A DNA stretch of 64,000 bases from Flavobacteriales bacterium (GTDB lineage: Bacteria; Bacteroidota; Bacteroidia; Flavobacteriales_F; PHOS-HE28), in assembly GCA_016710685.1 (NCBI GenBank), contig JADJVC010000006.1, positions 626,709 to 690,708 on the forward strand. The letters run 5' to 3'. This document shows, in pieces, positions 35,090 through 57,801 of the stretch; within the stretch, counting starts at the first letter, position 1, and each line of letters starts with the position of its first letter. The notes beneath the pieces were generated by a model that ran no database searches, was not told the DNA's origin, and saw only the letters and a list, made by a program, of their open reading frames with translations. The position numbers and the translations under genes are program-made.

Positions 35090-35124
35090 AAAGCCCCGGC
35101 GCTTCCGCCGGGGCTTTGTCTTTC
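35090..35124 (-). terminator. Terminator hairpin after adhesin gene 3
   Basis: AAA-GCCCCGGCG-CTTC-CGCCGGGGC-TTTGTCTTTC. The uncorrected ORF runs through this hairpin to 35123. The frame-corrected stop is at 35175. Confidence 0.6.
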
Positions 35125-35174
35125 AATTCCTCCCACGTTCCTCTCTAAATCGAGGGACCCGGGTCAGAAGGTCA

Positions 35175-38100
35175 TTATTCGTTCGCCACCAGCACGCGGC
35201 TTTCGAAGGTCTTGTTCCCGGCGGTGATGCGCAGCATGTACACCCCGTAGCGATGCTGCCCAGGTCGAGTACCGTGCCCAAACTGCCGTTCGCCATGGCC
35301 AAGGTTGCCGCATAGGCCTGTCGGCCAGTGGCATCGTAAAGCACCACTTCCGCATTTTTCGCATCCTCGTCTGCACCGGTAAGGCTGATGCTGAGGCGGT
35401 CACCGTTGTTCGGGTTGGGCCATACCTGGAATGCACCTTGTGAAGCAACGTTGCTTCCTGCGCCTTGCTGTTGTTGCTGTGGCTGGGCTGCTGTGGAGAG
35501 ACGGCATGCGGGGCCGAAGGGCTGGTAATGGCCGTTCACCTTGGCGCGCACGCGCACGTTGACGTTGATGCCATGGGGGATGTTCGCCAACGGCGCTGGC
35601 CCGAGCATGGGGTTGGTGCGGACGAAGGCCCATTCGTTGTTGCCGTGCGGATCGAATACCCAGAACTGGTACTGACTGGCACCGGCGACGGTGTTGCCTT
35701 GGATGAAGTTGTACCCGGTGGCCATCTCCAGGTCACACGAGGAGGGCAGGAGTTCAGCGGTACCCGTGGGCAGGCAGAACTTGCGGCCCAGATAGCTCTC
35801 GTCGGTAAATTCACCATTGGCGTCAATGATGCGGTTGCTGCTTCCATCGCGCAGTACGTAACCGCCATTGGCGATACCGTCGCCGTTTGCGTCGAACACG
35901 CGCAACTTATAGCAACCGTTGCCCACGCACATTGTTTCGGTTACCGTAGTGCCTGCGAGTCCATCGGCATACGGCCCACCGGATCCTATTACCGTGGCCT
36001 CATTGGCGGTGCGGATCTCCCAAGTTGTCTGCGAGCCGAAGTTGTCCAGCGCGATTGTGAGCACCAATTTTTCTTCGTTGCACGGATTTACCGGGATGCC
36101 GGTGCAGGTGCAATTGGCATCGATCACATCGTTCTCGGTGTTCGCATTGCCATCATCACAGGTAGTTCCAGGTTCGGGTCCGTTGGCGCAAAGGTCTTCT
36201 GCGTCGCAGGTACCGTCCCCATCCGCATCGGCGAAGGTGCCGGCGCATTGGCAGTTGGCATCGTACACATCACCAGTTGTGCAGGCGTCGTTGTCGTTGC
36301 AAGCGGTGCCGGGGACGGCAGGTCCGCCGGGCACGCCTTCACAGTCGGTTCCAAGCAAGGTGCCATTGCATTGGCAATTGCTGCCGATCACGTCGTTGAT
36401 GGTGGAGCTGTTGCCGTCATCGCAGCTCGTTCCAGGCTCAGGGCCGTTGGCGCAGAGGTCGTCGGCATCGCAAGTGCCATCGCCATCCGCATCCGCGAAC
36501 GTGCCAGCGCATTGACAATTGGCATCGTAGACGTCACCGGTTGTGCAAGCGTCGTTGTCGTTGCAAGTGGTGCCGGGCACGGCAGGTCCGCCGGGCACGC
36601 CTTCGCAGTCGGTTCCAAGCAAGGTGCCTGTGCATTGGCAGTTGGCACCGATGATATCATTGATGGTGGCGCTGTTACCGTCATCACAGCTGGTTCCCGG
36701 CTCAGGTCCGTTGGAGCAGAGGTCATCGGCGTCGCAGGTGCCATCACCATCCGCATCCAGAAAGATGTGTGTTACACCGTTCTGCGCGTCGCAAGCATCC
36801 AACGTGCAGGGGTCGCTGTCATCCACCAGCACCGGTGTACCGGTGCAGTTGCAGTTGGCATCGATCACATCGCCAATGGTGCAGGCGGTGCCGTCGTCAC
36901 AAGCGGTTCCGGGCTCTGGGCCGTTGGGGCACAGGTCGAAGAAGTTGCAGGTGCCGTCGTTGTCGTCGTCATTGCACTGGATCTGGTAGCTGGTGCCGCA
37001 GGGGGCGCCGGTAAACAAAATGTAGTACGTGCCTGCAGGCCTTACAGCGCTGGTGAACGTGGTGCTTGCCGGTGAGCTACCGCCGCCAACGGCTACGGTG
37101 GAGCTTTCCAAGAAACTTCCATTTACGTTGTACATATTGAGCGGCATACTCCCCGCATCACCGGGCCTTTCTGCCAAGATGTCCATGGCGATAGCACCCT
37201 GAGCAGGTAAAACGATCTTGAAATAGTCTCCGTTGTCGTCGTAGTAGAAATTGATACGACCGTCTACGGCATGTTGGTCCAGGTCGATCACTTGTGCGCT
37301 GGCTGTCCCATTATTGGGTTCCATGTCATCCCCGAATTCCGGAGACGACACATCGTAGCTGAATTGGTAGGAAGCCCCGCAAGCATCGCTTTGTATGTGC
37401 AGGTAGTACAACTGCTCGTTGCCTTTGCATGGCGTTGTAGCGAGGCCATTGGCTGGAGCACTGTTCGCGCCTACAGGTACACGCCATGTTTGCAGGTAAC
37501 TGCCATTTATGTTGTACAGGTTCATCGTGAGGCTGTCCGTGATGCTTGCTGAAGGATGTTCGGCCTTGGTATGGATGTTCAATACCCCATCATCGTTCAG
37601 CAGGAGCCGGTAGTAGTCGGCGTTGTCGTCGTAGTAGAAATTGATGCGGCCTTCATGGGGCACGTTCACAGCGACCGTATCCGCCGGACCAAAGGAATCG
37701 TTGCCATCACCGCCTTCAGCATCATCGGCATAGAGCGGTGGTGACACATCGTAGCTGAAGCGGTAGGATACCCCGCAGGCGTCGCTTTGGATCAGCAGGT
37801 AGTACAACTGCTCATTGCCCCGGCATTCAATGGTGGCCAAGCCGTTGGCGGCAACGCTGCTTGCACCCACGGGCACACGCCATGTCTTGAGGTAGCTGCC
37901 ATTGATGTTGTACAGGTTCAACGTCAGGCTGTCGGTGGTGCTCGCTGAAGGATGTTCGGCCTTGGTATGGATGTTCAACACGCCGTCATCATTCAGCACC
38001 AGCCGGTAGTAGTCCGCGTTGTCGTCGTAGTAGAAATTGATGCGGCCTTCGTGGGGCAAATTCACTGCGACTGTATCAGAAACACCTTGGCTGTCGTTGC

Positions 38101-38962
38101 CGTTCCCGGTTTCGTCGTCATCCGCATAGAGCGGCGATTCCACGTTGTAGGTGAAGCGGTAGGATGTGCCACACGCATTGCTGCTTATGAGCAAATAGTA
38201 AAGCTGTTCATTGCCGCGGCATTCAATTTCCACCGTTTGACTTTCGGCGGTTCCGTTCGCTCCCACTGGAACATTCCAGCTCTGCAAAAAGGAGCCGTTT
38301 ATATTGTACAGGTTCAAATCTGCGGTGGATGCAGTAGGTCCTGCGTTTTCCGCCGACCAGTTGATCAGTAGTTTTCCATCATCAGCCAGCACGAGGCGGT
38401 AGTAGTCTGAATTATCGCCGTATGCGAAGTTGATGGTGCCGTCGTTGTTGCCGGCGCTTGCGGTATCCGAAGTGCTAAGGGTGCTGTTGGGTTCCGCATC
38501 ATCCGCATACACGGGTGCCAGCATTTGGTAACTCAAACTGTACTGCGTGCAGTCGTTGCTGGAAGGGTTTACTAAGGAAATGTAGTAGATGCCTTCCCCG
38601 GCACAAAGCAGTGTATTGCTGCTCGCTACAGGTATTCCGCTGGCACCAGCGGCAAACGTGAATGCGGAAACGAAAGATCCGTTCACATTGTAGATGTTGG
38701 CCGTTACGGGAAGGCCCGTTGCACCGGAAGTGGAAATGGACATGTTCAACTGCATCCTTCCGCGGAAAGGTGTAGTGACCTTGAAGTAATCGCCCGAATT
38801 GTCAGGCACCGTGCAGGGACCCATGGAACCGCTTATCGCGGTGTTGTGGGCCAGTGTGTTGGCTTGACCGGTTGAATTGTTCGGCTCGGTTTCCGTTTGC
38901 GCCGTGCCAGCAAAAGGAAGCGCCAAGAGGAAGGCCAGCATCAGGGGTTTACATCTGCGCAT
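35175..38962 (-). CDS. Adhesin gene 3: five PPC-like domains, Cys/Asp-rich TSP3-like repeats, a paralog of the shared C-terminal module and a T9SS CTD (1-nt frameshift in the CTD)
   Basis: Met 38962 gives MRRCKPLMLAFLLALPFAGTAQ. PPC-type units (EPNN..GDYFK/DYYRL...) are followed by DADGDGTCDADDLC..NGPEPGTSCDDGN repeats. The segment ..TTWEIRTANE...RVFDANGDGI.. plus ..ASQYQFWVFDP.. parallels gene 1/2 cassette motifs ISWEIKDAAN...LTDSFGDGI and ATQYEFQFLDP. Adding one base to C-run 35243-35246 gives the CTD end ..LDLGSIATGVYMLRITAGNKTFESRVLVANE*. The ORF track shows 35123..39082. Confidence 0.8.
35957..36760 (-). repeat. 264-nt (88-aa) tandem coding repeats inside adhesin gene 3 (about 3 copies, the last partial)
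   Basis: The landmark ATCCGCATC(G/C)GCGAA(G/C)GTGCC recurs at 36221 and 36485, and a shorter ATCCGCATCC version occurs at 36749, giving a 264-nt period. The protein unit is FADADGDGTCDADDLCANGPEPGTSCDDGNS..CQCAGT. Confidence 0.8.
37160..38740 (-). repeat. About 396-nt (132-aa) tandem coding repeats (PPC-like units) inside adhesin gene 3; the two central copies are nearly identical at DNA level
   Basis: GGATGTTCGGCCTTGGTATGGATGTTCAA occurs at 37553 and 37949 with long near-identical flanks. The outer boundaries given are approximate. Confidence 0.75.
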
Positions 38963-39161
38963 TGTGTTGGGGGTTTTTGGGTGTGAAAACAAAAGGACTG
39001 TTTCTACTTGCCAAGCGCAATCCCACATTCGGGGGATGAATGCCGATATGGAATTGATGAACATGTGGTTTGTGAGGCTCAATGGCAGTTGGAAAAACCT
39101 TCGGTGATATGCTCATAGAGAAATGATATGGCTTCTTTTTCATGCGGAAATTGCAAGTGGC

Positions 39162-39599
39162 TCAGGCCGCCACTAAACCTTCATTGATCGCCTTCGCCAC
39201 GGCGGCAGTGCTGTTGTGTACCTGCATCTTTTGATAGATCACCTTCATGTGGCTGCGCACGGTCTCGAAGCTTATCTGCAGCTCCGCAGCGATCATCTTG
39301 TAGCTCAGGCCGTCCACCAAGGCGCGCAGCACGTCCAGCTCGCGCGGACTGAGCCGATGATCTTTGGCTTTTGCGCATTCCGGGCGCAACTGCACAGTGA
39401 CGCGGCGGGCATGAATTGATGGTCGGCGTCCGTTCCGCAGATCCTCCACGGTGCGCATCAACTCGGTTTCATTTTCGCCATGAAGAATGTATCCGACGGT
39501 GCCGGCGTTCAACCGGTCGTCCGTGAGTTCTTCATCTCCTAGAACGGCAACGACCACAAGCATGCGTTGTGCGTTACCTGGATTTGTGGAATGGTCCAT
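39162..39599 (-). CDS. LuxR/GerE-type HTH regulator with only the C-terminal half of a receiver domain (truncated NarL/FixJ-like response regulator)
   Basis: C-terminal LSPRELDVLRALVDGLSYKMIAAELQISFETVRSHMKVIYQKMQV is a GerE HTH. The N-terminus starts at the equivalent of REC beta-4/alpha-4 (..MLVVVAVLGDEE...AGTVGYILHG..), so the phospho-acceptor Asp region is absent. Confidence 0.75.
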   Translation of the reverse strand: MDHSTNPGNAQRMLVVVAVLGDEELTDDRLNAGTVGYILHGENETELMRTVEDLRNGRRPSIHARRVTVQLRPECAKAKDHRLSPRELDVLRALVDGLSYKMIAAELQISFETVRSHMKVIYQKMQVHNSTAAVAKAINEGLVAA

Positions 39600-39618: not shown

Positions 39619-39645
39619 CATCGGAGAGCACTGCCGGATGTGAAC
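39619..39645 (-). promoter_or_regulatory. Bipartite motif copy L: GTTCACAT-N14-CGATG upstream of the LuxR-type gene
   Basis: Minus strand: GATCGTTCACATCCGGCAGTGCTCTCCGATG, 19 nt before the ATG at 39599. A near-identical 31-mer lies upstream of beta-helix A. Confidence 0.35.
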
Positions 39646-39703: not shown

Positions 39704-40524
39704 TCAATTCGGCTGCTGCGCCACCCGCACTGTCGCCGGTAGGTTGCCGTCCGCATCCGTGCCGCGTGCAATGTCCACGCGCCGGTAGTGCGGCACATGC
39801 GGCACCCCACCGGGCTTGTAGGAAGGCGATCCTCCGTATAGTCCGATACCGTTCCCGTCTCCCCCGGCCAAGTGTACATCATCGGTGAACTGGTAAGAGC
39901 CGTCCATCTCGTTCACGAAAATTCCCGAAGGGCTTTGGTTCAGGATATTGCCGATGGATGTGGTGTCCTGTGAATTGCTGAAAACTTGGGAGGAGGAGAA
40001 GATGCAGTTGCTCACCGTGGTATTGTTGCTTTGCCAAATCGAACCCCCGCCCTGCTTGGTGAACACACAGTTGGAGATGGTCGCATAATGGCATGCATCG
40101 GTATTTCCGCCCAACACGATGCTGTTCAACAAGCTCAATCCGGAGGGCCGGAACGTGACGATCATTCCACCGGTTCCTGGCGAGTAGTCGAAAATGCATC
40201 GGTTCACCACGCTGGTGCCGCCGTTGCCCCGTAACACACCATGGAAGATGCATTCCGTAAACGAGCTGGAAGAGTTGGGTCCGGGTGCATACCCGCGCCC
40301 ACAAAGTGCAGGGGCTTGTCCAACGCGAAGCCGCCCGGCACTAGGAACGAGCCACCACTAAGGGTGATGTTGCTGTTGGCAGGCGCGGCTGTGATCGCGG
40401 CGTTCAGGTCGGTGAACACCTGCGGCGCCGTGATGCCGTCCACCACGATGCGGGGCAGTTGCGCCGAGACGGAAGTGGACAAAGCAAAACTCGCGGCGAT
40501 CGAAAGGAGTGTGAAGGTTCTCAT
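39704..40524 (-). pseudogene. Right-handed beta-helix repeat protein B (secreted), one frameshift (ORFs 40204..40524 and 39704..40237)
   Basis: Signal peptide MRTFTLLSIAASFALSTSVSAQ, followed by LPRIVVDG..QVFTDLNAAITAA..LSGGSF..DKPLHFVGAG. This parallels beta-helix A. The break is at G-run 40277-40279, and restoring it gives ..HPDPNSSSSFTECIFHGVLRGNGG... Its ATG overlaps the stop of the upstream gene (ATGA). Confidence 0.75.
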
Positions 40525-41492
40525 TGCTTGATGAATGGAATGTTGACGGCGTGACCCGTGGATGAAATGCGGATGGTGTAAGGCCCGGTGGCCAGCGGTG
40601 AGGTGTCCCAGCTTTTATCGTCAAGACCTTGAACACTCCAATTGATGGGCGCCGCAACTACGCGGCCTGTGGCGTCCAAAATGCTTACCTCGAAAGCGGA
40701 GGCTGTGCGTGCATCCAAGCGCAAGGTCAATTGGTCCTGCGCCGGATTCGGGAAGACCAACAAGCTGTTCACACCCGGAAGTTCTTCTATTCCGACATAC
40801 ACGGAAACGGTCGTCGTTATGGGAACGCTCCAACCTTCAGCTTCGTCATGGAATCGGATGGTGAACGTGTGCTCGCCAGCAGGTGTGTTCAGCGGCAGGT
40901 CGCTGATCAGATCAACTGTTGCTGCAGGTCCGATCGAATTCATAATGCGATCCGCTACTTGGTCGTCGATCCAATACTCGTAGCCGGTGATCTGGCCACC
41001 ACCGCGCGTGATCACAGTAGTGTAGGGCGTACTCCATTCGCCGCGTTCGTCTTTGCCGCGCATGGTCACATGGTGCAGGCCCAAGGGCAATGTGCCGGCA
41101 TTCAGAGTAGCGCTCAGGTCCAAGTTTGCATTCGGTGTTACAGGTAGTTGCAACGGGCTTGCCGCTGCATCATCGAACCAGTATTGCAACGCGGTCAACT
41201 TGCCGCCTTTCTGGCTAAAAACGCTGGTATACGGCGAGGACCAATGGGCATCGGCGTCCTTGAACTGAACGGTCACCATATGATAGCCGACAGGAAGTGC
41301 AGCGCTGTTGAAGCTGATCACGGTGTTCACTTCCGGCGTGGCTGTAACGGGGACGTTCACGCGGTTCGCGATATCGTCATCGAACCAATAGCGGTACGCG
41401 GTGATGTTCTGCCCGTCCACACTTGTGGTCAACAGCGCGACGATCGCCGGAAGCAATGCTGACCGAAGGGAAAGATGTAGGAGGTTCCGCAT
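40521..41492 (-). CDS. Tandem-repeat protein TR1 (three ~75-aa repeats) with T9SS C-terminal sorting domain
   Basis: Signal peptide MRNLLHLSLRSALLPAIVALLTTSVDGQ. The repeats begin YRYWFDDD, LQYWFDDA and YEYWIDDQ, and each ends ..G.H.(V/F)T..(F/G/H).D..(A/G).WS.P(Y/I)T(S/T)V. The CTD is ..LLVFPNPAQDQLTLRL...GPYTIRISSTGHAVNIPFIKQ. Confidence 0.75.
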   Translation of the reverse strand: MRNLLHLSLRSALLPAIVALLTTSVDGQNITAYRYWFDDDIANRVNVPVTATPEVNTVISFNSAALPVGYHMVTVQFKDADAHWSSPYTSVFSQKGGKLTALQYWFDDAAASPLQLPVTPNANLDLSATLNAGTLPLGLHHVTMRGKDERGEWSTPYTTVITRGGGQITGYEYWIDDQVADRIMNSIGPAATVDLISDLPLNTPAGEHTFTIRFHDEAEGWSVPITTTVSVYVGIEELPGVNSLLVFPNPAQDQLTLRLDARTASAFEVSILDATGRVVAAPINWSVQGLDDKSWDTSPLATGPYTIRISSTGHAVNIPFIKQ

Positions 41493-41495
41493 TGC

Positions 41496-42544
41496 TTATT
41501 GGGGTTGGGCCGCCATGCGGATGTTCACAGGAAGTTCGCCGCTGGCGTTCGTGGCGCTATTGATCGTGGCCGCTTGGTAGTGCGGGTTGTAGGAACCGCA
41601 CCGCTCTTCAGTGGTGATCCAGTGCCGTATACTCCGATGTCCGTGCCGTCATTCCCGGCACCCACTCCAGGGCTGGTAGGGGCCAAGTGCAGGTCATCGT
41701 CGAAGCTGTAGTTGCCGTCGGTTTCGTTCACGAAAATGGAACCTGCTGCCTGGCCGTATATGTTGTTCGATTCCTGGTTCGTAGTGCCGGAGTTGCTGAA
41801 CATATCGGCTCCTGTGATCAGGCAATTGCTGATCTGCACACCGCTCACTTGCCAAAGCGGAGCACCGTTAAACGTGAACACACAGTTCTGCACGATAGCA
41901 TTTGCGGAGTTCTGGAGCCGTGCGCCAAGACTGGTGCTGTTCCGAATGATCAAGCCCGATGGGCGGAAAAGGCTCAAGATCGCCCCGTCCAATATGCTGT
42001 TCGTAATAACGGCAGTGCCCGCCATGCCGGTGATCGTACCTCGGAAGATGCATTCATTGAATGAGCTGCTCGAAGAAGCACCCTCCACAAAACCCAAATA
42101 GAGTGGATCGTCAAATGCACAACGCTGGAAGATCAGATCCTTAGGGTCATCATCGGTCGCACCGGTTCCATACTGAACGTCACCATCAGGGTTGAAGTTG
42201 ATTCCCGTGAACGTACTGCCACTGGCGGCAGTGGTGATGGTGATCTCCGTGCTGCTGCTGGTGCTCCATGTCGTTGTGCCTGTTACGCTTGCACTGTCCG
42301 GGTGGATGCCCGCACCAATGATGTGAAGTGGTTTATCCACGGTTATGCCTAGTGGTGCAGAGAAGGTGCCGCCACTGAAGTAGAGCTTATCGTTGGGCTG
42401 GGCAGCGGTAAGTGCCTCCGTAATGTCGGTAAACACCTGCGGCCCACCACTGCCCTGCAAAACGATGCGCGGCAATTGGGCGTGCAGGCTGCCCGCGACC
42501 AAAATGGCCGAGAAGAAAAGGACGAGTGTTCGTGTACGCATCAT
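41496..42544 (-). pseudogene. Right-handed beta-helix repeat protein A (secreted), one frameshift near the 3' end
   Basis: MMRTRTLVLFFSAILVAGSLHAQLPRIVLQG.. is followed by repeated hydrophobic-x-N/G beta-helix rungs (..IFQRCAFDD.., ..FNECIFRG.., ..VQNCVFTF.., ..ISNCLITG..). Adding one base at 41592-41593 gives ..GAVPYNPHYQAATINSATNASGELPVNIRMAAQPQ*, with a stop at 41496, 3 nt before the TR1 ATG. This C-terminus parallels that of beta-helix B (..VRVAQQPN*). The ORF track shows 41525..42793. Confidence 0.75.
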
Positions 42545-42572: not shown

Positions 42573-42599
42573 CATCGGGGAGCCTTTCCGGATGTGAAC
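42573..42599 (-). promoter_or_regulatory. Bipartite motif copy A: GTTCACAT-N14-CGATG upstream of beta-helix A
   Basis: Minus strand: GATCGTTCACATCCGGAAAGGCTCCCCGATG, 28 nt before the ATGATG at 42544. Confidence 0.35.
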
Positions 42600-42643: not shown

Positions 42644-42669
42644 GTTCACATTTGCCGCGATCTTCGATA
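42644..42669 (+). promoter_or_regulatory. Bipartite motif copy S: GTTCACAT-N13-CGATA on the plus strand upstream of the ECF sigma gene
   Basis: GTTCACATTTGCCGCGATCTTCGATAG lies ~80 nt upstream of the GTG start at 42747. It is in inverted orientation relative to copy A in the same divergent intergenic region. Confidence 0.3.
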
Positions 42670-42746: not shown

Positions 42747-43355
42747 GTGGCCAAGACCTCCATTCCCGTGGAAAGGCCAGCGATATCCCACACCCATTCA
42801 CCGCCAAATTGGGTGAACGGTTTGTTGCGGAACGATGCGGCCGTGGTACGGTCACTGTATGCGACCCACTATCCCGCAGTACGGCAGTACGTCCTGAAGA
42901 ACAGCGGTACGGCAAACGATGCGCAGGACGTGTTTCAGGAAGCGGTCACGGTGTTGTGGTTGCAGGTGAAGGACGGCCGCTTCAATGCGAACGCGGAACC
43001 CGACCCCGGTGGCTTCCTCTTTCGGGTCGCGAAATTCAAATGGCTGGACGTTGTACGTTCGGCCGCACATCGCAACATGAGGGTGCTGCATGATGCCGGA
43101 GCCCATGTCCCCGAGGAAGAGCGGGACCACGAGTTGGAGGATCGCATCCTTCGCCTACGCGAGGTATATGCCAAGCTCGATGATAAGTGCCGGCAAGTGC
43201 TGGACCAGTTTTACTTCGAGCGGAAAGACCTCGCCAGCATCGCCGCCAGAATGGGTGTTGAAGAAGAAAGTATCCGCACCATCAAGTACCGTTGCATGAT
43301 GAAGTTGAGAGCATTCCGCCAGGCCATAAGCGGTGAAGACAGGAAAGAGAAATGA
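42747..43355 (+). CDS. ECF-type RNA polymerase sigma-70 family factor
   Basis: Region 2 (..ANDAQDVFQEAVTVLWLQV..) and region 4 HTH (..CRQVLDQFYFERKDLASIAARMGVEEESIRTIKYRCMMKLR..). GTG start. Confidence 0.85.
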   Translation: MAKTSIPVERPAISHTHSPPNWVNGLLRNDAAVVRSLYATHYPAVRQYVLKNSGTANDAQDVFQEAVTVLWLQVKDGRFNANAEPDPGGFLFRVAKFKWLDVVRSAAHRNMRVLHDAGAHVPEEERDHELEDRILRLREVYAKLDDKCRQVLDQFYFERKDLASIAARMGVEEESIRTIKYRCMMKLRAFRQAISGEDRKEK

Positions 43356-44086
43356 GCGAAGCTGCATTGCATAAGGACCGGTTCGAGGCGATTGAGGCAT
43401 TCCTCTTGGGCACCATGGGGCCCAAAGAGCGCCAACGCTTCGAGCAGGAGATGGCTGCCGATGCCGCGTTGTTGGAAGAAGTGGTGTTGCAGCGCGAGAA
43501 CACGCTGGCGGTGGAGATGGCCGGCATCTCGCGCACCCTGATGGCCGTGCGTGACGAACACCACGAAGCGGACAATTCTTCCAGCGACGGAAATTGGACC
43601 ACCTACCTGAAATATGCCGCCATGGTGGCGGTGCTGATCCTTGGCGCGGCCTGGTGGTTCGCAAGACCCGCCGAGAACGAGCGTCTTTTCGCCGAATACT
43701 ACGTGGAAGATCCCGGCTTGCCCGTGCCCATGAGCGCGGTGAATGACCCCGTGTTCCAGGACGCCATGGTGGCCTACAAACTGGGCGACTACGCCGAAGC
43801 GCGCACCAAATGGGGCAACTTGCTGCAAGCGGAACCGGCCAACGACACGCTGCGCTTTTATATCGCCAATGCGTACCTCGCGGAAGGCGACGCAAAAGCC
43901 GCGATCCCGCTGTACGAAGCCGTTGCTGATGAGCCTGCATCGGCATTTCATGTCAAAGCCCGTTGGTACATCTTTCTTGCATATTTGCACGAAGGCCGCT
44001 TGAACGAACTTCCCGATTCCACGCTAACGAACGATCCCGTTTACGGTGAACGTGTGCGCGTGATCCGGTCCAAGCTCCATCCGTGA
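43352..44086 (+). CDS. Anti-sigma-like membrane protein with extracytoplasmic TPR region
   Basis: The start overlaps the sigma stop (ATGA). The N-terminal ~50 aa (..FEAIEAFLLGTMGPKERQRFEQEMAADAALLEEV..) is followed by one TM helix (YLKYAAMVAVLILGAAWWFA) and then TPR-like helices. Confidence 0.7.
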   Translation: MSEAALHKDRFEAIEAFLLGTMGPKERQRFEQEMAADAALLEEVVLQRENTLAVEMAGISRTLMAVRDEHHEADNSSSDGNWTTYLKYAAMVAVLILGAAWWFARPAENERLFAEYYVEDPGLPVPMSAVNDPVFQDAMVAYKLGDYAEARTKWGNLLQAEPANDTLRFYIANAYLAEGDAKAAIPLYEAVADEPASAFHVKARWYIFLAYLHEGRLNELPDSTLTNDPVYGERVRVIRSKLHP

Positions 44087-47000
44087 TGCGCGCATTCCTG
44101 CCCCTGCTTGCGTTTTGCGCTTCAATGGGAGTGGGTGCACAGGATCTTGCCCTTCGCCATGCGCGTATCGATACGGCTTACAAGGCGGAGCAATACGCTG
44201 AAGTGACACGCTTGATCGACCTGCAACTGAAGGAAGCGCCGGGAACGCCATGGGAGGATTCGCTCCACTTGTACGTCTACAAATATGGCAGGGCGGTCCG
44301 CAAGCTGAAGGACGCGGATGCCGGCGTGGCGGCCGCAGAACGGGTTGTCGCATTGGTGAAGCAACGCGGAGATCCCCAACATGAACTCGACGCGCTTTTC
44401 GATCTGAGCTGGAACTACTACGAAGTAGGCCGGATGAAGGAAAGCCTGCGCGTGGATTCCACTGCGGTGCAAGTGGCGGAAGGCTCGCCGCAAATTCCGC
44501 TTTCGGAACGCGGGCGTGCATGTCAGTACGTGGCGTTTGATCATTCCGTGCTCGGCGATCATGCCAGCTCCGCGAAGTACGCGTTGAAAGCGTTGGCGGC
44601 TTACGAAAAGGCGGACTCGATCGCGCCCACGCAATGGTCCGAATCGTATAACGCAGTGGGCACCTCGTACTTGCACATGGGCAAGGTTTCCGAAGCGGGA
44701 CGTTACCTCGAAAAAGCATTGGAAGCCTTGGGCGACGGCACCTCTGAAGCTGTGCGTACGCGCAAAGCAGCTACCTGCGGAAACCTCGGCGTGCTGTGGC
44801 AAAATGCCGGGGATTATGCACGTGGAAAGCGCTATTACTACGAAGGACTCGCCATTCTGGACAAGCTCATTGCGGACACGCAAGACCCCGCCATGAAGGA
44901 CGAGGCCATTGTGAACCGCTCGCGCAGTTATGTAAATCTCGCAACCGTTTACCACCAGTACGGCGACGAAGGCCGCGCGCGGGAATTGCTCCAATTGGCC
45001 TGGAACGATCGAAGCCAAGTGCTGGAAGCCGACGACCCGCAACTGTTGGCGGTACGAGAGCGCATGGCCGACGTGGAGATCGCCGCCGGCAATTTCAGCG
45101 AAGCGGAAAAGCTCACCCATGCCTACTTGGATGCGTGCGAGCGGAAATTCGGGAAAGAGAGCGAGGAATTCATCCGCACCTGTTCCAAGCTGGGCGACAT
45201 CGCACTGCGCATGGGGAATTCCGCCAAAGCCGATTCACTTTTCAGCGCAAGCATCGCCGCGAGCCGCTTGAACGCGGACGCGAACAGCAACAATATCCTC
45301 GCCACCACTCTGCAGACGCGCGCCCGCATGAATCAGGATGCGGGCCGGCAGGAACAAGCGATGAACGATCTGGCACAGGCCCGGAAGATCCTGGTGGACG
45401 TGAACGGACCAACGAATTACCGCGTGGCAGGTTGTGATGTGTTGCGGGCGGAAGCGGCTTTTCAGCAGGCTCCTGACTCTGCCTTGGCCTATGCCCACCA
45501 AGCGCTGGCCATGATACAGGACCGCGTAGCATCGCTTAACGCCACCAATGCTCCACAAACGTTCAACGATCCGCACATCCTGCCCAGCGCCATCTATTGG
45601 AAAGTGCGCGCTGAAAGGAAGATCGCCGGACCCGGAAAGGTGAAGAAGGAGTGGGATGACGAATTGGAAGTGGCCATCCGAGCGCTGGAACGCAATAAGG
45701 CAGCCGTGCGCGATGAAGCCTCGAAACTGTTGCTTATCGCCGCCCAGAAAAACTTGTTCGACCTCGCCTTGGACGTGGCTTATGACAGCTATGCCGCTTC
45801 TGGATCGGCAGTGGACATGGAGCACTTCATCAATGTATCCGAAGCCAATCGTTCCATCCTGTTGAAGGACAGGCTCAACGGATTCGCGGGCTTGCACTTC
45901 ACAGGCGTGCCCGATTCCATTTTAACGCGTGAACAGGCATTGTACAATGCCTTGGACTTGGACCCCGAAGACCGTGCCGCCGCCACGGACATGGACAAGC
46001 GCGAAAAAGCCTACGCCGATTTTCTCGTCGAGCTGGAACGGAAATATCCGGCATATTTCAACCTGCGGTACGGAGAGCCGCACCTTGCCTTGGCGGCGAT
46101 CCACAAAAAGCTGCTGACGCCCCAACGGCAACTTTTGGGCTATGCACAGTCAGGAGATCACATGTATGCATGGGTTTCCCGACTTGAAGGAGATACCGTG
46201 ATCCGCTTCAGCGATACCGGAATAGGCGAAGCGGTGAAAGCGATGAACACCGCGATCATGGCGCGAAGCACCGAAGGGTATGCAAGTGCCGCTTACAGCG
46301 TGTACCAAAAGGCCTTTGCACCGCTGGAACACCTGCTCACAAAGCCGGAACTGCTCATCATACCCGACGGTCCCGTTGCATACGGTGAACTTTGAGACGC
46401 TGCTCACAAAGCCCGGTGCCAAGGACTTCCGGGACCACTTGTTGCTCCAGCGCTTCGCTGTCGCCTATTTGCTCAGTGCCACCACTGCGGTGCAATTCGC
46501 TGCCATGGCACGGAAAAATTCCAAGGGCGTGCTGGCCATCGCACCCGGCTTTACTGACCAGCTGAAACAGGAATACCTCGCTGGGGTGAAGGACTCCGCG
46601 GTGGTGGATCAAGATTATCTCCGCTTCGTACGCCAACCTTTCGCGGAGCGCACCGCGCAAACCTTGGGGAGCATGCTTTCCGCACAAGTGCTCACAGGCA
46701 AGGCCGCCAGCGAAAAAGGCTTCCGCGAAAAAGCTTCGGAATACGGCATCCTTCATCTCGGCACACATGCGGAAATGAACGCCAGCTCGCCGATGTATTC
46801 AAGGCTCGTGCTCACCAAGGACAGCAGCGCCACCGCGCCCGATGATGACGGGTACTTGCATGCTTACGAGCTCTACGAGCTGGACCTGCGCGCACAACTC
46901 GCCGTGCTCACCGCCTGTTCAACTGGCAGTGGCAAGGAGGATGCCGGTGAAGGCGTCCGCTCCTTGGGTTACGCATTCGCTTATGCCGGATGCCCGAGCT

Positions 47001-47305
47001 TAGTGGTATCACTGTGGAACATCGATGAAAAAGTGAGTGCGGATATCATCGCAAACTTCTATGAAAACCTCGCGGACGGCATGCCAAAACACGAGGCCTT
47101 GCGGAAAGCCAAACTGGACTATTTGGCCAACGCGCCCGAAGAACTCGCGTTGCCTTATTTCTGGGCGGGCTTGGTGCTTGTTGGGGATGTGGAGCCTGTA
47201 TTGTTGTCGAGGAAGTTCCCCGTTTGGGGCTGGGCGGCCTTGGGATGCGCGATACTGCTTACCCTGTGGGGTTGGAGAAAGTGGCGTACGAAAGAGCAGG
47301 CTTGA
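44083..47305 (+). pseudogene. TPR plus CHAT (caspase-like protease) domain protein, exported, with a C-terminal TM anchor; one frameshift (ORFs 44083..46395 and 46280..47305)
   Basis: Signal peptide MMRAFLPLLAFCASMGVGAQ and many TPR-like repeats. The CHAT core carries ..LLIIPDGP|LHTVNFETLL.., GILHLGTHAE (His) and VLTACSTGSG (Cys). C-terminal TM: WGWAALGCAILLTLWGW. The break is at C-run 46372-46374, and removing one C gives the consensus-like IIPDGPLH. Confidence 0.8.
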
Positions 47306-54981: not shown

Positions 54982-55614
54982 TTAAAACTTTGCCGTGAGC
55001 CCCAAGTTCAAGTAGCTGGCACCATAGCCCAGTTCCAAGTAGGCACCGATCTTGTCGGTGAAGAAGTAGCGACCACCCACGAAGGTGCTCCACGTAACGA
55101 AATTGAGTTTATAGTTGTAATTATCGAGGTAGTCCGTGGTGATGCCTCCAGTTGTGTATGTGCTCTTGTCCTTGTAGCTGCCGATGTTGTAGCCCAGCAT
55201 CAACCCGCCGTACACATCGAACTTGTCGCTTTCGATGATCTCATTCAGGTGAAGCGTGCCTCGCAAACCCACCACGGTGTTGCTCCAACGGCGATCGTAG
55301 TTGTAGACGCTCTGGTAGCCTTGTGAAGTGTATTTGTAGCTAACCGTCTTATTGGCAAATAAGCCCCCGACGCCAATGGCTCCGACTCCGTCCACGCCGC
55401 CTACGCCGTGCTCAATGCTCAGCACAATGGTGGGCGAGGTCTTGTAATTGTCGTTGTAGGAACTGATGTAACTGTATCGTGCACCGCCCAACCCGATGCC
55501 GGCGTTGATGGCGGTGACGCCACGGTCGAAGGCTTGTGCATGTGCGCTGTTCGGGGCGGCGAGTGCGACTAAAGCAAGGGCCGCGAGCAGTGAGGAAATG
55601 TTCTTGGTCTTCAT
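54982..55614 (-). CDS. Outer membrane beta-barrel (porin-family/OmpW-like) protein
   Basis: Signal peptide MKTKNISSLLAALALVALAAPNSAHAQ, alternating amphipathic beta-strands rich in G and Y, and a C-terminal ..LGLTAKF with terminal Phe. Confidence 0.7.
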   Translation of the reverse strand: MKTKNISSLLAALALVALAAPNSAHAQAFDRGVTAINAGIGLGGARYSYISSYNDNYKTSPTIVLSIEHGVGGVDGVGAIGVGGLFANKTVSYKYTSQGYQSVYNYDRRWSNTVVGLRGTLHLNEIIESDKFDVYGGLMLGYNIGSYKDKSTYTTGGITTDYLDNYNYKLNFVTWSTFVGGRYFFTDKIGAYLELGYGASYLNLGLTAKF

Positions 55615-55645
55615 TTTTCCAGGGTGTTGGTTTGGTTGCTCAGGT

Positions 55646-56599
55646 TCATTTGCGTTTCAGTGCGATGCTGCCTTCACGCAGGTCCGCCACTGTGTATTTG
55701 GCCTGCAACTTGGCGTACAGCGCGTCCAACAGTTGCTGTGTGCTGCCTGTGTGTTGTACGGTTACCGTGCCAATGCCTTCGCTGAAGGAGCGTTCAACGT
55801 TCTTCACTTTCGTGTCGCCTTTTACGATATCCTCAAAGCCTGCCATCGCGCCGTACTCCATGTTGGCGATGGAGAACACGGTCCAGTTGCTGTTAGGGTC
55901 TGCGCTGGCGGGCAACGGTATGGTTTGCCATTCGTCGCTCAACAGGTCGCAACTCTGGAATACGCCCTTTTCCAAGGCATTGGCCAATGCGGGGTTGTTC
56001 TTCACGCTGCTCACTACGTTGAACATGCCTACGCCCAAGCCCACACCGCCGGCCTTTTTGCCATCTACATCAACTGTCTTACTCCACAGAATATCACGCG
56101 TTTGAGGGTCCAATACTTTTAGGACGAAGCCTAGATGCACTGTTTCCGAACCCACACGCACAATGGCTATGCCCACCTTGCTGCTGCCTTCGTTGTACTC
56201 CGTGATCTCGCCCGTTACCACGAGTTGCGCACCCAACATTTTCCCTGCACGTGCAGTGCTGGCCGCATTCATCAGGCCGTTGTCGGCACCTTCCATCTCT
56301 TGTGTCATATCGCCCAAGTTGTCCTTGGATTCCAGCACGCGGAAACATTGCAATTGCTGCAATGCGTTTTCCAGCATGGTGGCCATGTTCGCGCCTAATT
56401 CCGGCGGATTATTCGTGGTAGTGACATTGAAGCGTGCCACTGCCAGCCGTACCCGCTGTGCCAAGGGAACACTGTCGCAACGTGCTTTGAGTTCATCAAA
56501 AGTGACCTCGACTTTCTTCTTGTTCTGCGCATGGCTTAGCGCCGGCAGGGACATCAGTGTGGCCAAGGTTATGAGCTTGAGGGTGTCCAGGGTTTTCAT
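55646..56599 (-). CDS. CsgG/HfaB-family secretion-channel lipoprotein-like protein with an extra C-terminal domain
   Basis: Signal peptide, then ..RLAVARFNV...GANMATMLENALQQLQCFRVLESKD...AGKMLGAQLVVTGEITEY.., which matches the CsgG-family core pattern. An additional ~120 aa follows. Confidence 0.65.
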   Translation of the reverse strand: MKTLDTLKLITLATLMSLPALSHAQNKKKVEVTFDELKARCDSVPLAQRVRLAVARFNVTTTNNPPELGANMATMLENALQQLQCFRVLESKDNLGDMTQEMEGADNGLMNAASTARAGKMLGAQLVVTGEITEYNEGSSKVGIAIVRVGSETVHLGFVLKVLDPQTRDILWSKTVDVDGKKAGGVGLGVGMFNVVSSVKNNPALANALEKGVFQSCDLLSDEWQTIPLPASADPNSNWTVFSIANMEYGAMAGFEDIVKGDTKVKNVERSFSEGIGTVTVQHTGSTQQLLDALYAKLQAKYTVADLREGSIALKRK

Positions 56600-56858
56600 T
56601 GTTTTGGTTTTTGGTTGGTTGTCGGTTTTAGTTTTTGGTTATCGGCGTGTCCCATGGCGTGAGAAATGCGGGAGAGATCGCTAGGGCTGCTGCAAGAAGG
56701 ATGATGGTGAGCATGGTGTTTTCCGTTTGGTGAAGCGAAGCAACCGCAACATCAGACCTCGCCAAAGCGCCATTGAGCAAGCGGCGGCATGCACTGAGAA
56801 TTTGGCGGAAATGCGAAGGGCGCCGTGAGGCGCCCTTTCGTATCAAGCCGTTCTCCGC

Positions 56859-57437
56859 TTACTGCGGCAATGGCAAACTGAAACTCCCGTTGGTGATGGA
56901 ATGGCCTGTGCTCACCGTCGTCCCATCATTATCGATCACCGAGACGCCGGCATAGCTGAAGGTGCCTTCCAACAGGCCTCCGGGCAGGGTGTCCAACCGT
57001 GTGAACGTGTTGCTGCCGCTGGTACCGGTGGAGAGCAGATAGGTTTGGTCATCCGTGGTGACTTGCGGGTCCGGGGAGTGGATTGCCAACATGGTGAAGA
57101 TGGGATCTGTTTGACCCGTATTAATGGTAATGGGCGCACTCAAACTGTCCGGGATGATCGTGCTCCAAGAAGATGCCCATACACCCCCAATTGTCACGGC
57201 AACGCCCAAAAAGAGCCGCGATCCGGGAATGCCTGTATTGGTTGCTGCCGTTGCCACTTGATCGCAATTGATCGTGGTGCCGTCCAGGTCGAATTTAATG
57301 TAGCCTTCTGAAGGTGTGCCACCGGTGCCACCTCCGCCGGAAGGTGCCGCAGGGGCATCGTCATCCTTGGAGCAACTTGCTATCAGTAAGCAAACGGTCG
57401 CCAATGCGGCGATCCAGTTGGTTGTCCGGAGTTTCAT
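56859..57437 (-). CDS. Hypothetical lipoprotein
   Basis: Lipobox MKLRTTNWIAALATVCLLIASCSKDDD, followed by a Gly-rich linker and a beta-rich body. No recognizable family. Confidence 0.6.
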   Translation of the reverse strand: MKLRTTNWIAALATVCLLIASCSKDDDAPAAPSGGGGTGGTPSEGYIKFDLDGTTINCDQVATAATNTGIPGSRLFLGVAVTIGGVWASSWSTIIPDSLSAPITINTGQTDPIFTMLAIHSPDPQVTTDDQTYLLSTGTSGSNTFTRLDTLPGGLLEGTFSYAGVSVIDNDGTTVSTGHSITNGSFSLPLPQ

Positions 57438-57442
57438 CGTGT

Positions 57443-57754: not shown

Positions 57755-57801
57755 TGCGCATGGGTGGCATCGCTCATCGGGGTCCACAGTGGGATCACGT
57801 T

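What the first reader, a model, noticed from the sequence alone, without database searches (positions are those of the whole stretch)
39704..42544. Paralogous two-gene cassettes (secreted beta-helix protein plus tandem-repeat T9SS protein) occur at two loci, each next to dedicated regulators: a candidate uncharacterised cell-surface system
Locus 1 reads beta-helix A (41496..42544), a 3-nt gap, TR1 (40521..41492), an ATGA overlap, then beta-helix B (39704..40524). Locus 2 reads beta-helix 3 (59043..60088), a 5-nt gap, then TR2 (57802..59037). The three beta-helix proteins share an N-terminal pattern (signal peptide, LPRIV..G..QVFTD(I/L)..A(I/L)TAA...(L/F)SGG(S/T)F...DKPLH(F/I)(V/I)GAG in A and B) and a C-terminal (I/V/L)YGG.SP...G.P..P segment, but none has a T9SS CTD. 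TR1 and TR2 consist only of 3-4 copies of a ~75-80-aa unit with the signature (Y/F)(W/F)xDxD ... G.H......R..D..G.WS, plus a T9SS CTD. The tight spacing implies translational coupling and a fixed stoichiometric partnership. A plausible model is a T9SS-anchored repeat scaffold that holds a Sec-exported beta-helix enzyme or adhesin. I cannot assign either partner to a characterised family. Locus 1 sits beside an ECF sigma/anti-sigma/CHAT operon and a truncated LuxR regulator. Locus 2 sits directly downstream of a LytS-like kinase/LytTR regulator pair.
Basis: partly seen in the sequence, partly recalled or inferred. Interest (0 to 1): 0.72.

Follow-up and report, generated by a model that had tools for sequence, protein, structure and literature searches.

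The report
Paired beta-helix and T9SS repeat-protein module
A small secreted beta-helix protein is almost always encoded directly in front of a surface protein built of short Ig-like repeats across the phylum Bacteroidota; the pair has not been described and probably forms a two-part cell-surface structure, and this window carries two copies of it with sequence defects.

Summary
The two cassettes are real, but none of the three beta-helix (BH) genes is an intact ORF in this window. A has a 1-nt deletion, beta-helix 3 has net -1 nt of homopolymer indels, and B has lost 223 nt. All three are intact in 98-100% identical contigs. Locus 1 is really a three-gene unit, A-TR1-B.

The pairing is the main result. 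In 77 of 78 genome loci anchored on the repeat protein (TR), a BH gene lies directly upstream. In 64 of 65 testable metagenome loci anchored on BH, a TR gene follows directly. The gap is usually 2-3 nt. Hosts span several Bacteroidota orders, including cultured species.

No Pfam, NCBIfam or PDB family covers either partner. BH is a roughly 345-aa Sec-exported right-handed beta-helix without a T9SS CTD. Its best-conserved part is a 40-aa C-terminal tail ending Q-x-x-COOH. TR carries 2-7 Ig-like units and usually a type A CTD. BH and TR subtypes co-diverge, and one natural BH-TR fusion exists. An ECF-type promoter motif precedes A, the sigma gene and the LuxR gene.

Best reading (about 0.45): TR is a T9SS-anchored stalk and BH docks on it. 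Physical binding and BH export are untested.

The parts
41496..42544 (-). Beta-helix gene A (BH type 1, about 349 aa when the frame is repaired). Signal peptide ending ...LHA|Q, right-handed beta-helix, conserved C-terminal tail ...NPHY...LPVNIRMAAQPQ. Broken in the window by a 1-nt deletion at about 41591.
   Evidence: frames. (indel against L003). (P0001 is 99% identical and intact). (PF13229, 26.3 bits against a cutoff of 25.9). (AF2 beta-helix core, pLDDT above 90).
40521..41492 (-). TR1: signal peptide, 3 Ig-like 'YxYWFDxD' units (residues 31-103, 100-168, 169-242) and a T9SS type A CTD (246-314).
39704..40524 (-). Beta-helix gene B, a paralog of A. In this window it is a remnant with a 223-nt internal deletion and frameshift at 40278/40279. 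It is an intact 347-350-aa gene in relatives. Its start overlaps the TR1 stop (ATGA).
42574..42599 (-). ECF-type promoter motif GTTCACATCCGGAAAGGCTCCCCGAT, about 30 nt upstream of the start of A.
   Evidence: Three matches in the window against 0.25 expected. The motif lies before BH at 28 sites in related loci.
42644..42668 (+). Divergent copy of the same motif upstream of the ECF sigma gene (inferred autoregulation).
   Evidence: The motif lies before the sigma gene at 24 sites in related loci.
39620..39645 (-). Third copy of the motif, 21 nt upstream of the GerE/LuxR gene.
   Evidence: The motif lies before GerE at 16 sites in related loci.
39162..39599 (-). GerE/LuxR-type regulator, 145 aa. 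This short length is conserved in relatives.
42747..43355 (+). ECF sigma factor (Sigma70_r2 plus r4), divergent from A.
43352..44086 (+). Anti-sigma-like protein. On reading the sequence it has a single transmembrane segment; Pfam finds TPR repeats in the part after it, which would be periplasmic (inferred).
44083..47305 (+). TPR-CHAT protein with an N-terminal signal peptide on reading the sequence, so probably periplasmic. About 1072 aa in relatives. Split in the window by a 1-nt insertion at about 46378.
59043..60088 (-). Beta-helix 3 (BH type 2, 348 aa when intact). Broken in the window by -2 nt at 59764 and +1 nt at 59745.
57802..59037 (-). TR2: signal peptide, 4 'EYFxDxDPGxG' Ig-like units and a T9SS type A CTD (343-396).
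60266..63562 (-). LytTR response regulator (60266..61009) and a TPR plus His_kinase (PF06580) sensor (61217..63562), directly upstream of beta-helix 3.

Best explanation
BH and TR are the two parts of one conserved Bacteroidota cell-surface module.

Proposed mechanism:
- TR is exported by Sec. Its type A CTD takes it through the T9SS, and it ends up anchored to the cell by its C-terminus. Its 2-7 Ig-like units form a stalk or scaffold.
- BH is exported by Sec into the periplasm and has no CTD. It docks on the TR unit array through its conserved C-terminal tail of about 40 aa, which ends Q-x-x-COOH. It is then carried to, or displayed at, the cell surface together with TR.
- The variable central coils of the beta-helix are the working face (ligand binding, possibly glycan).
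- The two genes are co-transcribed and probably translationally coupled.
- In this lineage, locus 1 (A-TR1-B plus a GerE regulator) is switched on by the neighbouring ECF sigma factor. That sigma factor is held in check by a membrane anti-sigma/TPR protein and a periplasmic TPR-CHAT protein. Locus 2 is controlled by the adjacent His_kinase/LytTR pair.

Shown here: obligate adjacency, tight spacing, the folds, the CTD, the conserved tail, co-divergence of subtypes, one natural fusion, and the shared promoter motif.

Inferred: physical docking, export of BH with TR, the function of the beta-helix face, and sigma-dependent transcription.
For: - Adjacency from the TR side: 77 of 78 genome loci have BH directly upstream on the same strand. 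The exception starts 130 nt from a contig end.
- Adjacency from the BH side: 64 of 65 testable metagenome loci have TR directly after the BH array. The 65th has TR 688 nt later.
- Spacing from the BH stop to the TR ATG: 3 nt in 49 and 2 nt in 10 of 88 pairs.
- Host range includes Flavobacteriales, Bacteroidales, Saprospiraceae, Sphingobacteriales, Prevotella and Ferruginibacter MAGs, and the cultured Anaerophaga thermohalophila, Marinifilum breve and Phnomibacter sp. MR.
- BH conservation is concentrated in the N-terminal cap and the C-terminal tail, while the central coils vary.
- 202 of 238 BH ORFs end AQxx, and most of the other complete ones end xQxx. A tail HMM gave 237 hits, all but one (E 1e-4) in BH ORFs, and 234 of them within one residue of the C-terminus.
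- The tail is modelled with low confidence in the BH monomer, while the core has pLDDT above 90.
- The TR model is a chain of beta-sandwich domains. Its Foldseek matches are tandem Ig/FN3 arrays such as GbpA, RbmA and the T9SS cargo GhpA.
- Natural fusion P0452: the BH tail runs straight into TR unit 1, with no stop codon and no TR signal peptide, followed by PKD/MBG domains and a CTD.
- Subtype matching: A-type BH always pairs with 'YxYWFDxD' units, and bh3-type BH with 'EYFxDxDPGxG' units, in five independent pairs.
- There are 1-4 BH paralogs per TR, with a weak positive correlation with unit number (Spearman 0.24, p 0.0075, not corrected for phylogeny).
- The promoter motif GTTCACA-N14-20-CGAT occurs before A, the sigma gene and GerE in the window (3 hits against 0.25 expected). 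In related loci it lies at 28 sites before BH, 24 before sigma and 16 before GerE.
Against: - There is no direct evidence that BH binds TR or leaves the periplasm.
- Two Chitinophagales-type TR proteins (L080, L082) have no Pfam CTD hit, so a T9SS route is not universal for the module.
- Only one fusion was seen among the 150 listed representatives. It comes from a MAG whose 5' end of that gene also looks frameshifted.
- Beta-helix folds are often enzymes. PL6 lyases and phage depolymerases are among the weak structural matches.
- The correlation between BH number and unit number is weak and not corrected for phylogeny.
- As far as I know, T9SS co-transport of a CTD-less partner has no established precedent, and my searches found none.
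Confidence: 0.45

Rival explanations
1. BH is a secreted or periplasmic glycan-active enzyme (lyase, hydrolase, esterase or epimerase of the pectate-lyase-like superfamily). TR is a carbohydrate-binding or anchoring partner that positions it. The pair is a small polysaccharide-processing unit rather than a structural adhesin.
For: The fold is a right-handed beta-helix. Structural matches include a PL6 alginate lyase (7dmk), Klebsiella and Acinetobacter phage depolymerases, pectin methylesterases and AlgG, and phage pectate-lyase-like proteins. There are weak Pfam hits to Beta_helix and Pect-lyase_RHGA_epim. The motif before the tail, 'F.Y..D.HL...P...G.DG.D.GIYGG', resembles endings that I recall from pectate-lyase-like proteins (from memory, not tested).
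Against: All structural matches are weak (E 2e-3 or worse against PDB, TM 0.43 or lower). No CAZy-type family reaches its threshold in 27 diverse members. Across the family, no acidic or basic cluster is conserved in the central coils. The conserved residues sit in the cap, the Asn ladder and the tail. This explanation also overlaps the best one, because an enzyme could be the docked head.
Confidence: 0.2
2. BH is a periplasmic chaperone or maturation factor dedicated to the TR unit array. It would keep the array soluble, fold it or modify it before T9SS export, and would itself never leave the periplasm.
For: BH has a Sec signal and no CTD. BH lies upstream of its partner with a 2-3-nt gap, as I recall for some dedicated chaperone-substrate pairs. 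There are weak N-terminal hits to NosD, a periplasmic beta-helix maturation protein. BH follows the TR unit array even in proteins without a recognisable CTD.
Against: Up to four BH paralogs with divergent cores sit in front of one TR. In the natural fusion, BH is the N-terminal domain of the exported protein. NosD scores are far below the family cutoff (17.7 bits for A against a cutoff of 300). Rapidly varying central coils are not what I would expect of a chaperone surface (inference).
Confidence: 0.15
3. BH itself carries a new, short C-terminal export or attachment signal, the roughly 40-aa Q-x-x-COOH tail. The T9SS or another outer-membrane machinery would recognise it independently of TR. 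TR and BH would then be co-expressed cargoes that act together outside the cell without piggy-backing.
For: The tail is the best-conserved segment, always sits at the extreme C-terminus, and ends at a fixed distance from an invariant Q. It is modelled with low confidence in the monomer, as I would expect of a signal that folds on a receptor.
Against: In about 170 loci the tail was found only on BH proteins (one weak exception), not on other passenger types, unlike a general sorting signal. It has no similarity to type A or type B CTD models. In the fusion the tail is internal and still retained. Tail type co-varies with TR unit type, which fits partner recognition better.
Confidence: 0.1
4. 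The broken BH genes mean that the module is decaying in this organism, so the loci in this window are pseudogene remnants without function.
For: All three BH genes are out of frame in the window, and B has lost 223 nt.
Against: The single-base differences lie in short homopolymer runs. The near-identical contig L003 carries its own, different indels, for example a split GroEL and a different frameshift in A. The CHAT gene is broken in the same way, and the C-terminal end of the 1319-aa T9SS protein also reads out of frame. A and bh3 are intact in 99-100% identical sequences from other samples. Only the deletion in B looks like a possible real lesion.
Confidence: 0.1

Closest known systems
Classical T9SS type A cargo with a functional domain, Ig-like domains and a CTD in one chain (for example gingipain RgpB, SprB, RemA, and GhpA of Aureispira)
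   Same: TR has a Sec signal, Ig-like beta-sandwich domains and a Por_Secre_tail CTD above threshold. GhpA is among its structural matches. The fused relative P0452 has exactly this one-chain layout.
   Different: Apart from one fusion (P0452), the 'head' domain (BH) is a separate polypeptide with its own signal peptide and no CTD. Neither the TR unit nor BH belongs to a curated family.
Cellulosome cohesin-dockerin display (scaffoldin with repeated docking modules, subunits with a C-terminal docking module)
   Same: This is a 'works like' analogy only. A cell-anchored protein carries 2-7 repeated beta-sandwich units. One to four partner proteins have variable bodies and a conserved module at the extreme C-terminus. 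Partner and unit subtypes are matched.
   Different: No Cohesin or Dockerin hit appeared in any Pfam scan. The units are about 75 aa, whereas cohesins are roughly 140 aa (from memory). The tail is about 40 aa without the duplicated calcium-binding loops I recall in dockerins. The cell envelope is diderm, so the partner must also cross the outer membrane. Binding is untested.
Hitchhiker (piggy-back) export, as in Tat co-translocation of signal-less subunits (for example PaoABC; abstract of PMC4273604 as listed)
   Same: The proposed step in which a protein without its own export signal crosses a membrane bound to a signal-bearing partner.
   Different: The machinery (T9SS) and the membrane (outer) are different. 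My searches found no report of this for T9SS. It is entirely inferred here.
Right-handed parallel beta-helix proteins (pectate-lyase-like superfamily, NosD, phage tailspikes, Rhombotarget A)
   Same: The fold: AF2 core pLDDT above 90, and Foldseek probability 1.0 to 9cdu, 7dmk and 6tku.
   Different: Scores are weak (E 2e-3 or worse against PDB). Only 3 of 27 members hit Pfam Beta_helix, and all three are below its cutoff. NosD is far below its cutoff. No conserved catalytic set is visible. The family has its own Q-x-x-COOH tail and an obligate TR partner.
DdvS/DdvA of Myxococcus xanthus: an ECF sigma factor with a transmembrane anti-sigma factor carrying a periplasmic TPR-CHAT domain (PMC11506125)
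   Same: An ECF sigma factor, a membrane anti-sigma factor and a TPR-CHAT caspase-like module are encoded together and control a neighbouring locus.
   Different: Here the anti-sigma/TPR protein and the TPR-CHAT protein are separate genes. The controlled genes are surface proteins, not CBASS/CRISPR. The phylum is different. The paper states that DdvA is the only characterised anti-sigma factor with TPR-CHAT and found DdvA-like proteins only in Myxococcota and one Comamonas species.

Membership tests
T9SS type A CTD cargo (TR1, TR2) | C-terminal Por_Secre_tail / TIGR04183 domain above the curated cutoff | tested here: met
   PF18962: 40.3 bits (TR1) and 28.5 bits (TR2) against a cutoff of 27. 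TIGR04183: 31.5 and 28.3 bits against 23.
T9SS type A CTD cargo (TR1, TR2) | N-terminal Sec signal peptide | tested here: met
   Read directly from the sequence: a basic N-terminus, a hydrophobic core and a cleavage site before Q. The AF2 model has an N-terminal helix at residues 3-21. No dedicated signal-peptide predictor was available.
T9SS type A CTD cargo (TR1, TR2) | Secretion depends on the T9SS, with CTD removal and surface attachment | not testable with these tools
   This needs T9SS mutants and proteomics in a cultured carrier.
T9SS type A CTD cargo (TR1, TR2) | The host encodes a T9SS | tested here: inconclusive
   A PorP_SprF gene and several other CTD proteins lie on the same contigs. 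The core genes (sprA, porKLMN) were not looked for.
T9SS cargo (BH proteins A, B, bh3) | Type A or type B C-terminal sorting domain | tested here: not met
   No Por_Secre_tail, TIGR04183 or type B CTD hit in A, B, bh3 or 27 diverse members.
Right-handed parallel beta-helix superfamily (BH) | Right-handed beta-helix fold | tested here: met
   In the AF2 model, residues about 75-320 of P0001 have pLDDT above 90, and pTM is 0.71. Foldseek probability is 1.0 to beta-helix structures.
Right-handed parallel beta-helix superfamily (BH) | Pfam Beta_helix (PF13229) above the gathering score | tested here: inconclusive
   A scores 26.3 against 25.9. B scores 17.3 and bh3 has no hit. Only 3 of 27 diverse members hit at E 0.01 or better, and all three are below the cutoff.
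Polysaccharide lyase or glycoside hydrolase beta-helix enzymes | Conserved catalytic acidic or basic residues in the central groove, or membership of a CAZy-linked family model | tested here: not met
   No such model reaches its threshold. Residues conserved across the family lie in the cap, the Asn ladder and the C-terminal tail. This is a conservation argument only; activity was not tested.
NosD family | TIGR04247 at or above its 300-bit cutoff | tested here: not met
   A scores 17.7 bits, and the match covers only the first 37 of 377 model positions. Six of 27 members give similarly weak hits.
Cohesin-dockerin systems | Cohesin and Dockerin_1 domains | tested here: not met
   Neither appears in any Pfam scan of BH or TR proteins. 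The resemblance is in architecture only.
Y_Y_Y Ig-like domain (PF07495), considered for the TR unit | PF07495 above its gathering score of 26.6 | tested here: not met
   Best scores are 17.8 (TR1), 23.9 (L070) and 26.1 bits (L075), all below the cutoff. A distant relationship remains possible.
DdvS/DdvA-type ECF regulation | A single transmembrane anti-sigma factor carrying the periplasmic TPR-CHAT domain | tested here: not met
   The anti-sigma/TPR protein (244 aa) and the TPR-CHAT protein (about 1072 aa in relatives) are separate genes.
DdvS/DdvA-type ECF regulation | An ECF sigma factor (regions 2 and 4) encoded next to its anti-sigma factor, with sigma-dependent promoters at the targets | tested here: inconclusive
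   Regions r2 and r4 are present. A shared motif lies before the sigma gene, A and GerE. Transcription was not measured.

The most novel reading that the evidence does not exclude
The module is a phylum-wide, cohesin-dockerin-like display system that uses T9SS piggy-backing. CTD-less beta-helix subunits would dock through a dedicated 40-aa Q-x-x-COOH tail onto the repeated Ig-like units of a CTD-bearing scaffold in the periplasm. They would then cross the outer membrane through the T9SS as a folded complex. This would give interchangeable heads on one anchored stalk.
Probability: 0.25. Interest if true: 0.8.

Novelty: new variant of a known kind. Interest (0 to 1): 0.62.

Why it matters
T9SS cargo is normally identified by its C-terminal domain. 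If this module works as proposed, there is a large class of surface or secreted proteins that CTD-based cargo prediction misses. The BH family alone has 583 clusters (50% identity) at E 1e-30 or better and 1783 at E 1e-10 or better. The T9SS would then be able to carry non-covalent partners.

Even without that, the work defines two undescribed protein families: the BH family with its Q-x-x-COOH tail, and the 'YxYWFDxD' / 'EYFxDxDPGxG' Ig-like unit. The pairing rule between them is almost without exception. The work also gives a candidate ECF promoter motif that links a split anti-sigma/TPR-CHAT sensor to a defined target operon. Finally, it names cultured hosts in which all of this can be tested.

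Tried and rejected
- Exact look-up of TR1 in the contig index found nothing. Look-ups of TR2 and of homologs worked.
- PDB sequence searches with the BH and TR profiles gave nothing for BH and only CTD matches for TR.
- Foldseek of the BH model against PDB and BFVD gave only generic, weak beta-helix matches. Foldseek of TR gave generic Ig/FN3 arrays with TM below 0.27, because the relative positions of the domains are uncertain.
A narrower alignment, A4, worked.
- Literature searches found no description of the module. The searches covered T9SS with beta-helix/ECF/CHAT, T9SS piggy-backing, T9SS with cohesin/dockerin, and the two NCBI product names. The T. forsythia vesicle proteome hit is a different, 121-kDa beta-helix protein.
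- A tail-only database search was considered and dropped. The candidate cap and the 120-row listing would have been filled by BH proteins themselves. The tail HMM was run on the roughly 170 fetched loci instead.
- Programmed frameshifting was considered for the three broken BH genes and rejected. The indels sit at different, non-homologous places. They lie in short homopolymer runs. Near-identical sequences from other samples lack them.
- A fixed BH:TR stoichiometry was rejected, because arrays contain 1-4 BH genes.

Full report
**1. Observation**

On the minus strand, TR1 (40521..41492, 323 aa) and TR2 (57802..59037, 411 aa) are intact ORFs. Both carry a T9SS type A CTD above the curated thresholds.

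None is divisible by three, and a three-frame translation shows that each changes frame.

Comparison with near-identical public contigs pinpoints the lesions.
- Beta-helix 3: compared with L001/L002 (99% identical DNA), it has -2 nt at 59764 and +1 nt at 59745, all in short C or G runs. There it is an intact 348-aa gene. The identical protein P0233 is on 20 contigs, the longest 1.8 Mb.
- Gene A: compared with L003 (98% identical), it lacks one C at about 41591, which puts its last 30 codons out of frame. P0001, 99% identical and from another source, is intact.
- Gene B: compared with L003, it lacks 223 nt at 40278/40279. In L003 and in a 78%-identity relative (L004), B is a full 347-350-aa gene.

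L003 carries its own, different single-base indels, including a split GroEL. The CHAT gene of the window is also split, at about 46378. The single-base lesions are therefore most simply assembly errors. The deletion in B may be real.

With frames repaired, A and B are 44% identical (E 1e-92). A and beta-helix 3 align end to end at 24% identity (E 5e-10). TR1 and TR2 align at 24% identity (E 2e-8).

**2. Is the pairing real?**

I tested adjacency in both directions.

*Anchored on TR.* A scan of one genome per species returned 78 loci. With HMMs built from the homolog alignments, 77 of 78 loci have a BH ORF immediately upstream on the same strand. The exception begins 130 nt from a contig end.

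*Anchored on BH.* A metagenome scan returned 79 loci. Of the 65 with at least 500 nt after the BH array, 64 have a TR gene directly after it. The last has one 688 nt downstream.

Other features of the pairing:
- BH arrays hold 1 gene (48 loci), 2 (13), 3 (2) or 4 (1) before TR.
- The BH stop and the TR start are 3 nt apart in 49 of 88 pairs (typically TGAGCCATG) and 2 nt apart in 10 (TAATTATG).
- Hosts include Flavobacteriales, Cryomorphaceae, Crocinitomicaceae, Bacteroidales, Prevotella, Saprospiraceae, Ferruginibacter and Sphingobacteriales MAGs. Cultured hosts are Anaerophaga thermohalophila DSM 12881, Marinifilum breve JC075 and Phnomibacter sp. MR.
- A full HMMER pass over 1.84 billion representatives finds 583 clusters at E 1e-30 or better and 1783 at E 1e-10 or better. 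Almost all are 330-365 aa and match over their full length.

**3. Anatomy of BH**

On reading the sequences, BH proteins have a signal peptide that usually ends ...A|Q. There is no lipobox and no CTD.

AF2 gives a right-handed beta-helix with pLDDT above 90 for the core. Foldseek returns only weak, generic beta-helix matches: Rhombotarget A, a PL6 lyase, phage depolymerases and pectin methylesterases, all with E 2e-3 or worse. A PDB sequence search gives nothing. Of 27 diverse members, only 3 touch Pfam Beta_helix and 6 touch the N-terminus of NosD, all below the cutoffs.

Conservation is concentrated at the two ends.
- N-terminus: GDTIYL.GG.F...K.L...GAGHHPDS..AT.
- C-terminus: D.HL...G.DG...GIYGG..PYK.G.VP.NPHI..K.I...TD..G.L.V.V.V.AQxx-COOH.
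- The central coils vary and show no conserved catalytic cluster.

Of 238 BH ORFs, 202 end exactly two residues after AQ. Most of the other complete ones end xQxx. An HMM of the tail gave 237 hits, all but one (E 1e-4) in BH ORFs, and 234 of them within one residue of the C-terminus. In the monomer model the tail has pLDDT below 50 although it is the best-conserved segment.

**4. Anatomy of TR**

AF2 (pLDDT 82.6) gives a string of beta-sandwich domains plus the CTD. The structural matches are tandem Ig/FN3 arrays: GbpA, RbmA, contactins and the T9SS cargo GhpA. No Pfam or PDB family covers the unit. Y_Y_Y and MalQ_N score below threshold.

Arrays have 2-7 units, most often 3-4. In short proteins the array starts right after the signal peptide. 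In long proteins it is internal and sits beside PKD, alpha/beta-hydrolase or DUF7948-plus-propeller domains. Most TR proteins have a type A CTD. Two Chitinophagales-type ones (L080, L082) have none that Pfam recognises. So the invariant link is between BH and the unit array, not between BH and the CTD.

**5. Evidence bearing on mechanism**

- One representative, P0452 (1896 aa, MAG GCA_974324535.1), is a natural fusion. The BH tail runs straight into TR unit 1 (...LPVNINVTNAANIVAYQYWLDE...) with no stop codon and no TR signal peptide. More units, PKD/MBG domains and a CTD follow. This places BH at the end of the array that lies far from the CTD, in an exported protein.
- BH and TR subtypes are matched. 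A-type BH (tail ...PYK.G.VP.NPH...AQxx) always sits with 'YxYWFDxD' units. bh3-type BH (N-terminus ATIWRVNNNP, tail ...SG.P..P.IYE...) sits with 'EYFxDxDPGxG' units in five independent pairs.
- BH gene number rises weakly with unit number (Spearman 0.24, p 0.0075, not corrected for phylogeny).

Together these favour a physical partnership in which the BH tail recognises TR units. Docking, and export of BH with TR, are inferences. Co-folding could not be run.

**6. Regulation**

Locus 1 is flanked by a divergent operon: an ECF sigma factor (r2 plus r4), an anti-sigma-like protein with a transmembrane segment (read from the sequence) and TPR repeats, and a TPR-CHAT protein with a signal peptide on reading the sequence. 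A 145-aa GerE protein lies downstream.

The sigma, anti-sigma and CHAT genes all lie upstream in 26 of the 78 TR-anchored loci, all of the Flavobacteriales type. A GerE gene is present in 27.

Upstream regions of BH share the motif GATCGTTCACAT-N-CCGATG. The pattern GTTCACA-N14-20-CGAT occurs three times in the 64-kb window against 0.25 expected:
- 42574-42599 (-), before A;
- 42644-42668 (+), before the sigma gene;
- 39620-39645 (-), 21 nt before the GerE gene.

Across the TR-anchored loci the motif lies at 28 sites before BH, 24 before sigma and 16 before GerE. Some of these loci have no sigma gene nearby. This looks like an autoregulated ECF regulon whose targets include the module. Transcription was not measured.

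The closest characterised system is DdvS/DdvA of Myxococcus, where a single anti-sigma factor carries the periplasmic TPR-CHAT domain (PMC11506125). Here the two functions are on separate genes.

Locus 2 follows a TPR/His_kinase sensor and a LytTR regulator. The same arrangement, with a CsgG-like gene downstream, is kept around a 41%-identical ortholog (L171).

**7. Comparison and novelty**

TR passes the sequence tests for T9SS type A cargo. BH has the beta-helix fold but fails or only marginally meets every curated family test. It fails the CTD tests.

The architecture resembles a classical T9SS adhesin or enzyme (head, Ig-like stalk, CTD) that has been split into two polypeptides. By analogy only, it also resembles cohesin-dockerin display. 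I found no description of the module in the searchable literature.

I class it as a new variant of a known kind. If docking and piggy-back export are confirmed, it would be a new mode of T9SS cargo delivery.

**8. Verdict**

The copy in this window is damaged, mostly by likely assembly errors plus one 223-nt deletion. Interest: 0.62.

Noticed in passing
window 35242, 41506, 41591, 42290, 46378, 48405, 48624, 49468, 50485-50488, 59745, 59764: There are many single-base differences from 98-99% identical contigs, mostly in short homopolymer runs. The relatives carry their own indels as well. This looks like an error-prone (probably long-read) assembly, so ORF lengths in this window should not be trusted without a comparison.
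   Followed up: partly
window 44083..47305 (+): The TPR-CHAT gene is split into ORFs of 770 and 341 aa by a 1-nt insertion at about 46378. It is one gene of about 1072 aa in relatives. Together with the separate anti-sigma/TPR protein it forms a 'split' version of the DdvA-type TPR-CHAT anti-sigma factor. The paper reports DdvA-like proteins only from Myxococcota and one Comamonas species.
   Followed up: partly
window 42574-42599, 42644-42668, 39620-39645; related loci L012-L069: A candidate ECF promoter motif, GTTCACA-N14-20-CGAT. In several relatives it also sits just downstream of TR (for example L047 8955, L052 8900, L062 8829, L064 8600). In L007 and L009 the genes after TR are DUF4139/DUF4140 genes, but no exact motif match was found after TR in L053, the same region as L007. 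The regulon may extend beyond the module.
   Followed up: partly
L172 97-5787 (MAG GCA_974324535.1), protein P0452: A natural in-frame fusion of a BH protein to a long TR protein (1896 aa). The 5' end of that gene also looks frameshifted within the signal peptide.
   Followed up: partly
L080 3204-4601; L082 8001-9401 (Phnomibacter sp. MR): These TR proteins have five units but no Pfam CTD hit. They end in a shared segment of about 70 aa (…IYRFTGNGNWSNAANW…) of unknown nature, and 3-4 BH paralogs flank them.
   Followed up: no
window 54982..57850 (-): Directly downstream of TR2 lie a small protein and a 192-aa protein that both look like lipoproteins on reading the sequence, a CsgG/LpoB-like protein (317 aa) and a 210-aa protein that may be an outer-membrane barrel. 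A CsgG-like gene and an OMP_b-brl_2 gene also follow the orthologous module in L171, so they may belong to locus 2.
   Followed up: partly
window 35123..39082 (-): A 1319-aa T9SS protein with four repeats of about 130 aa and Cys-rich Dicty_CTDC-like repeats. Its C-terminal CTD is out of frame in the window (1-nt deletion at about 35242) and intact in L003.
   Followed up: no
L015, L016, L028, L061, L170: Some genomes carry two or three BH-TR modules in tandem within 17 kb (for example BH-TR, BH-TR-BH, BH-TR in L015). This points to repeated local duplication of the whole module.
   Followed up: no
L074 6027-11081; L069 5010-10691; L026 11363-16555; L089 4794-11891: These are very long TR proteins (1685-2366 aa). 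A four-unit array is embedded among enzyme-like domains: a PGAP1-like alpha/beta-hydrolase in L074, and DUF7948 plus a beta-propeller in L069. L026 and L089 were not scanned against Pfam. Each is still preceded by BH.
   Followed up: no
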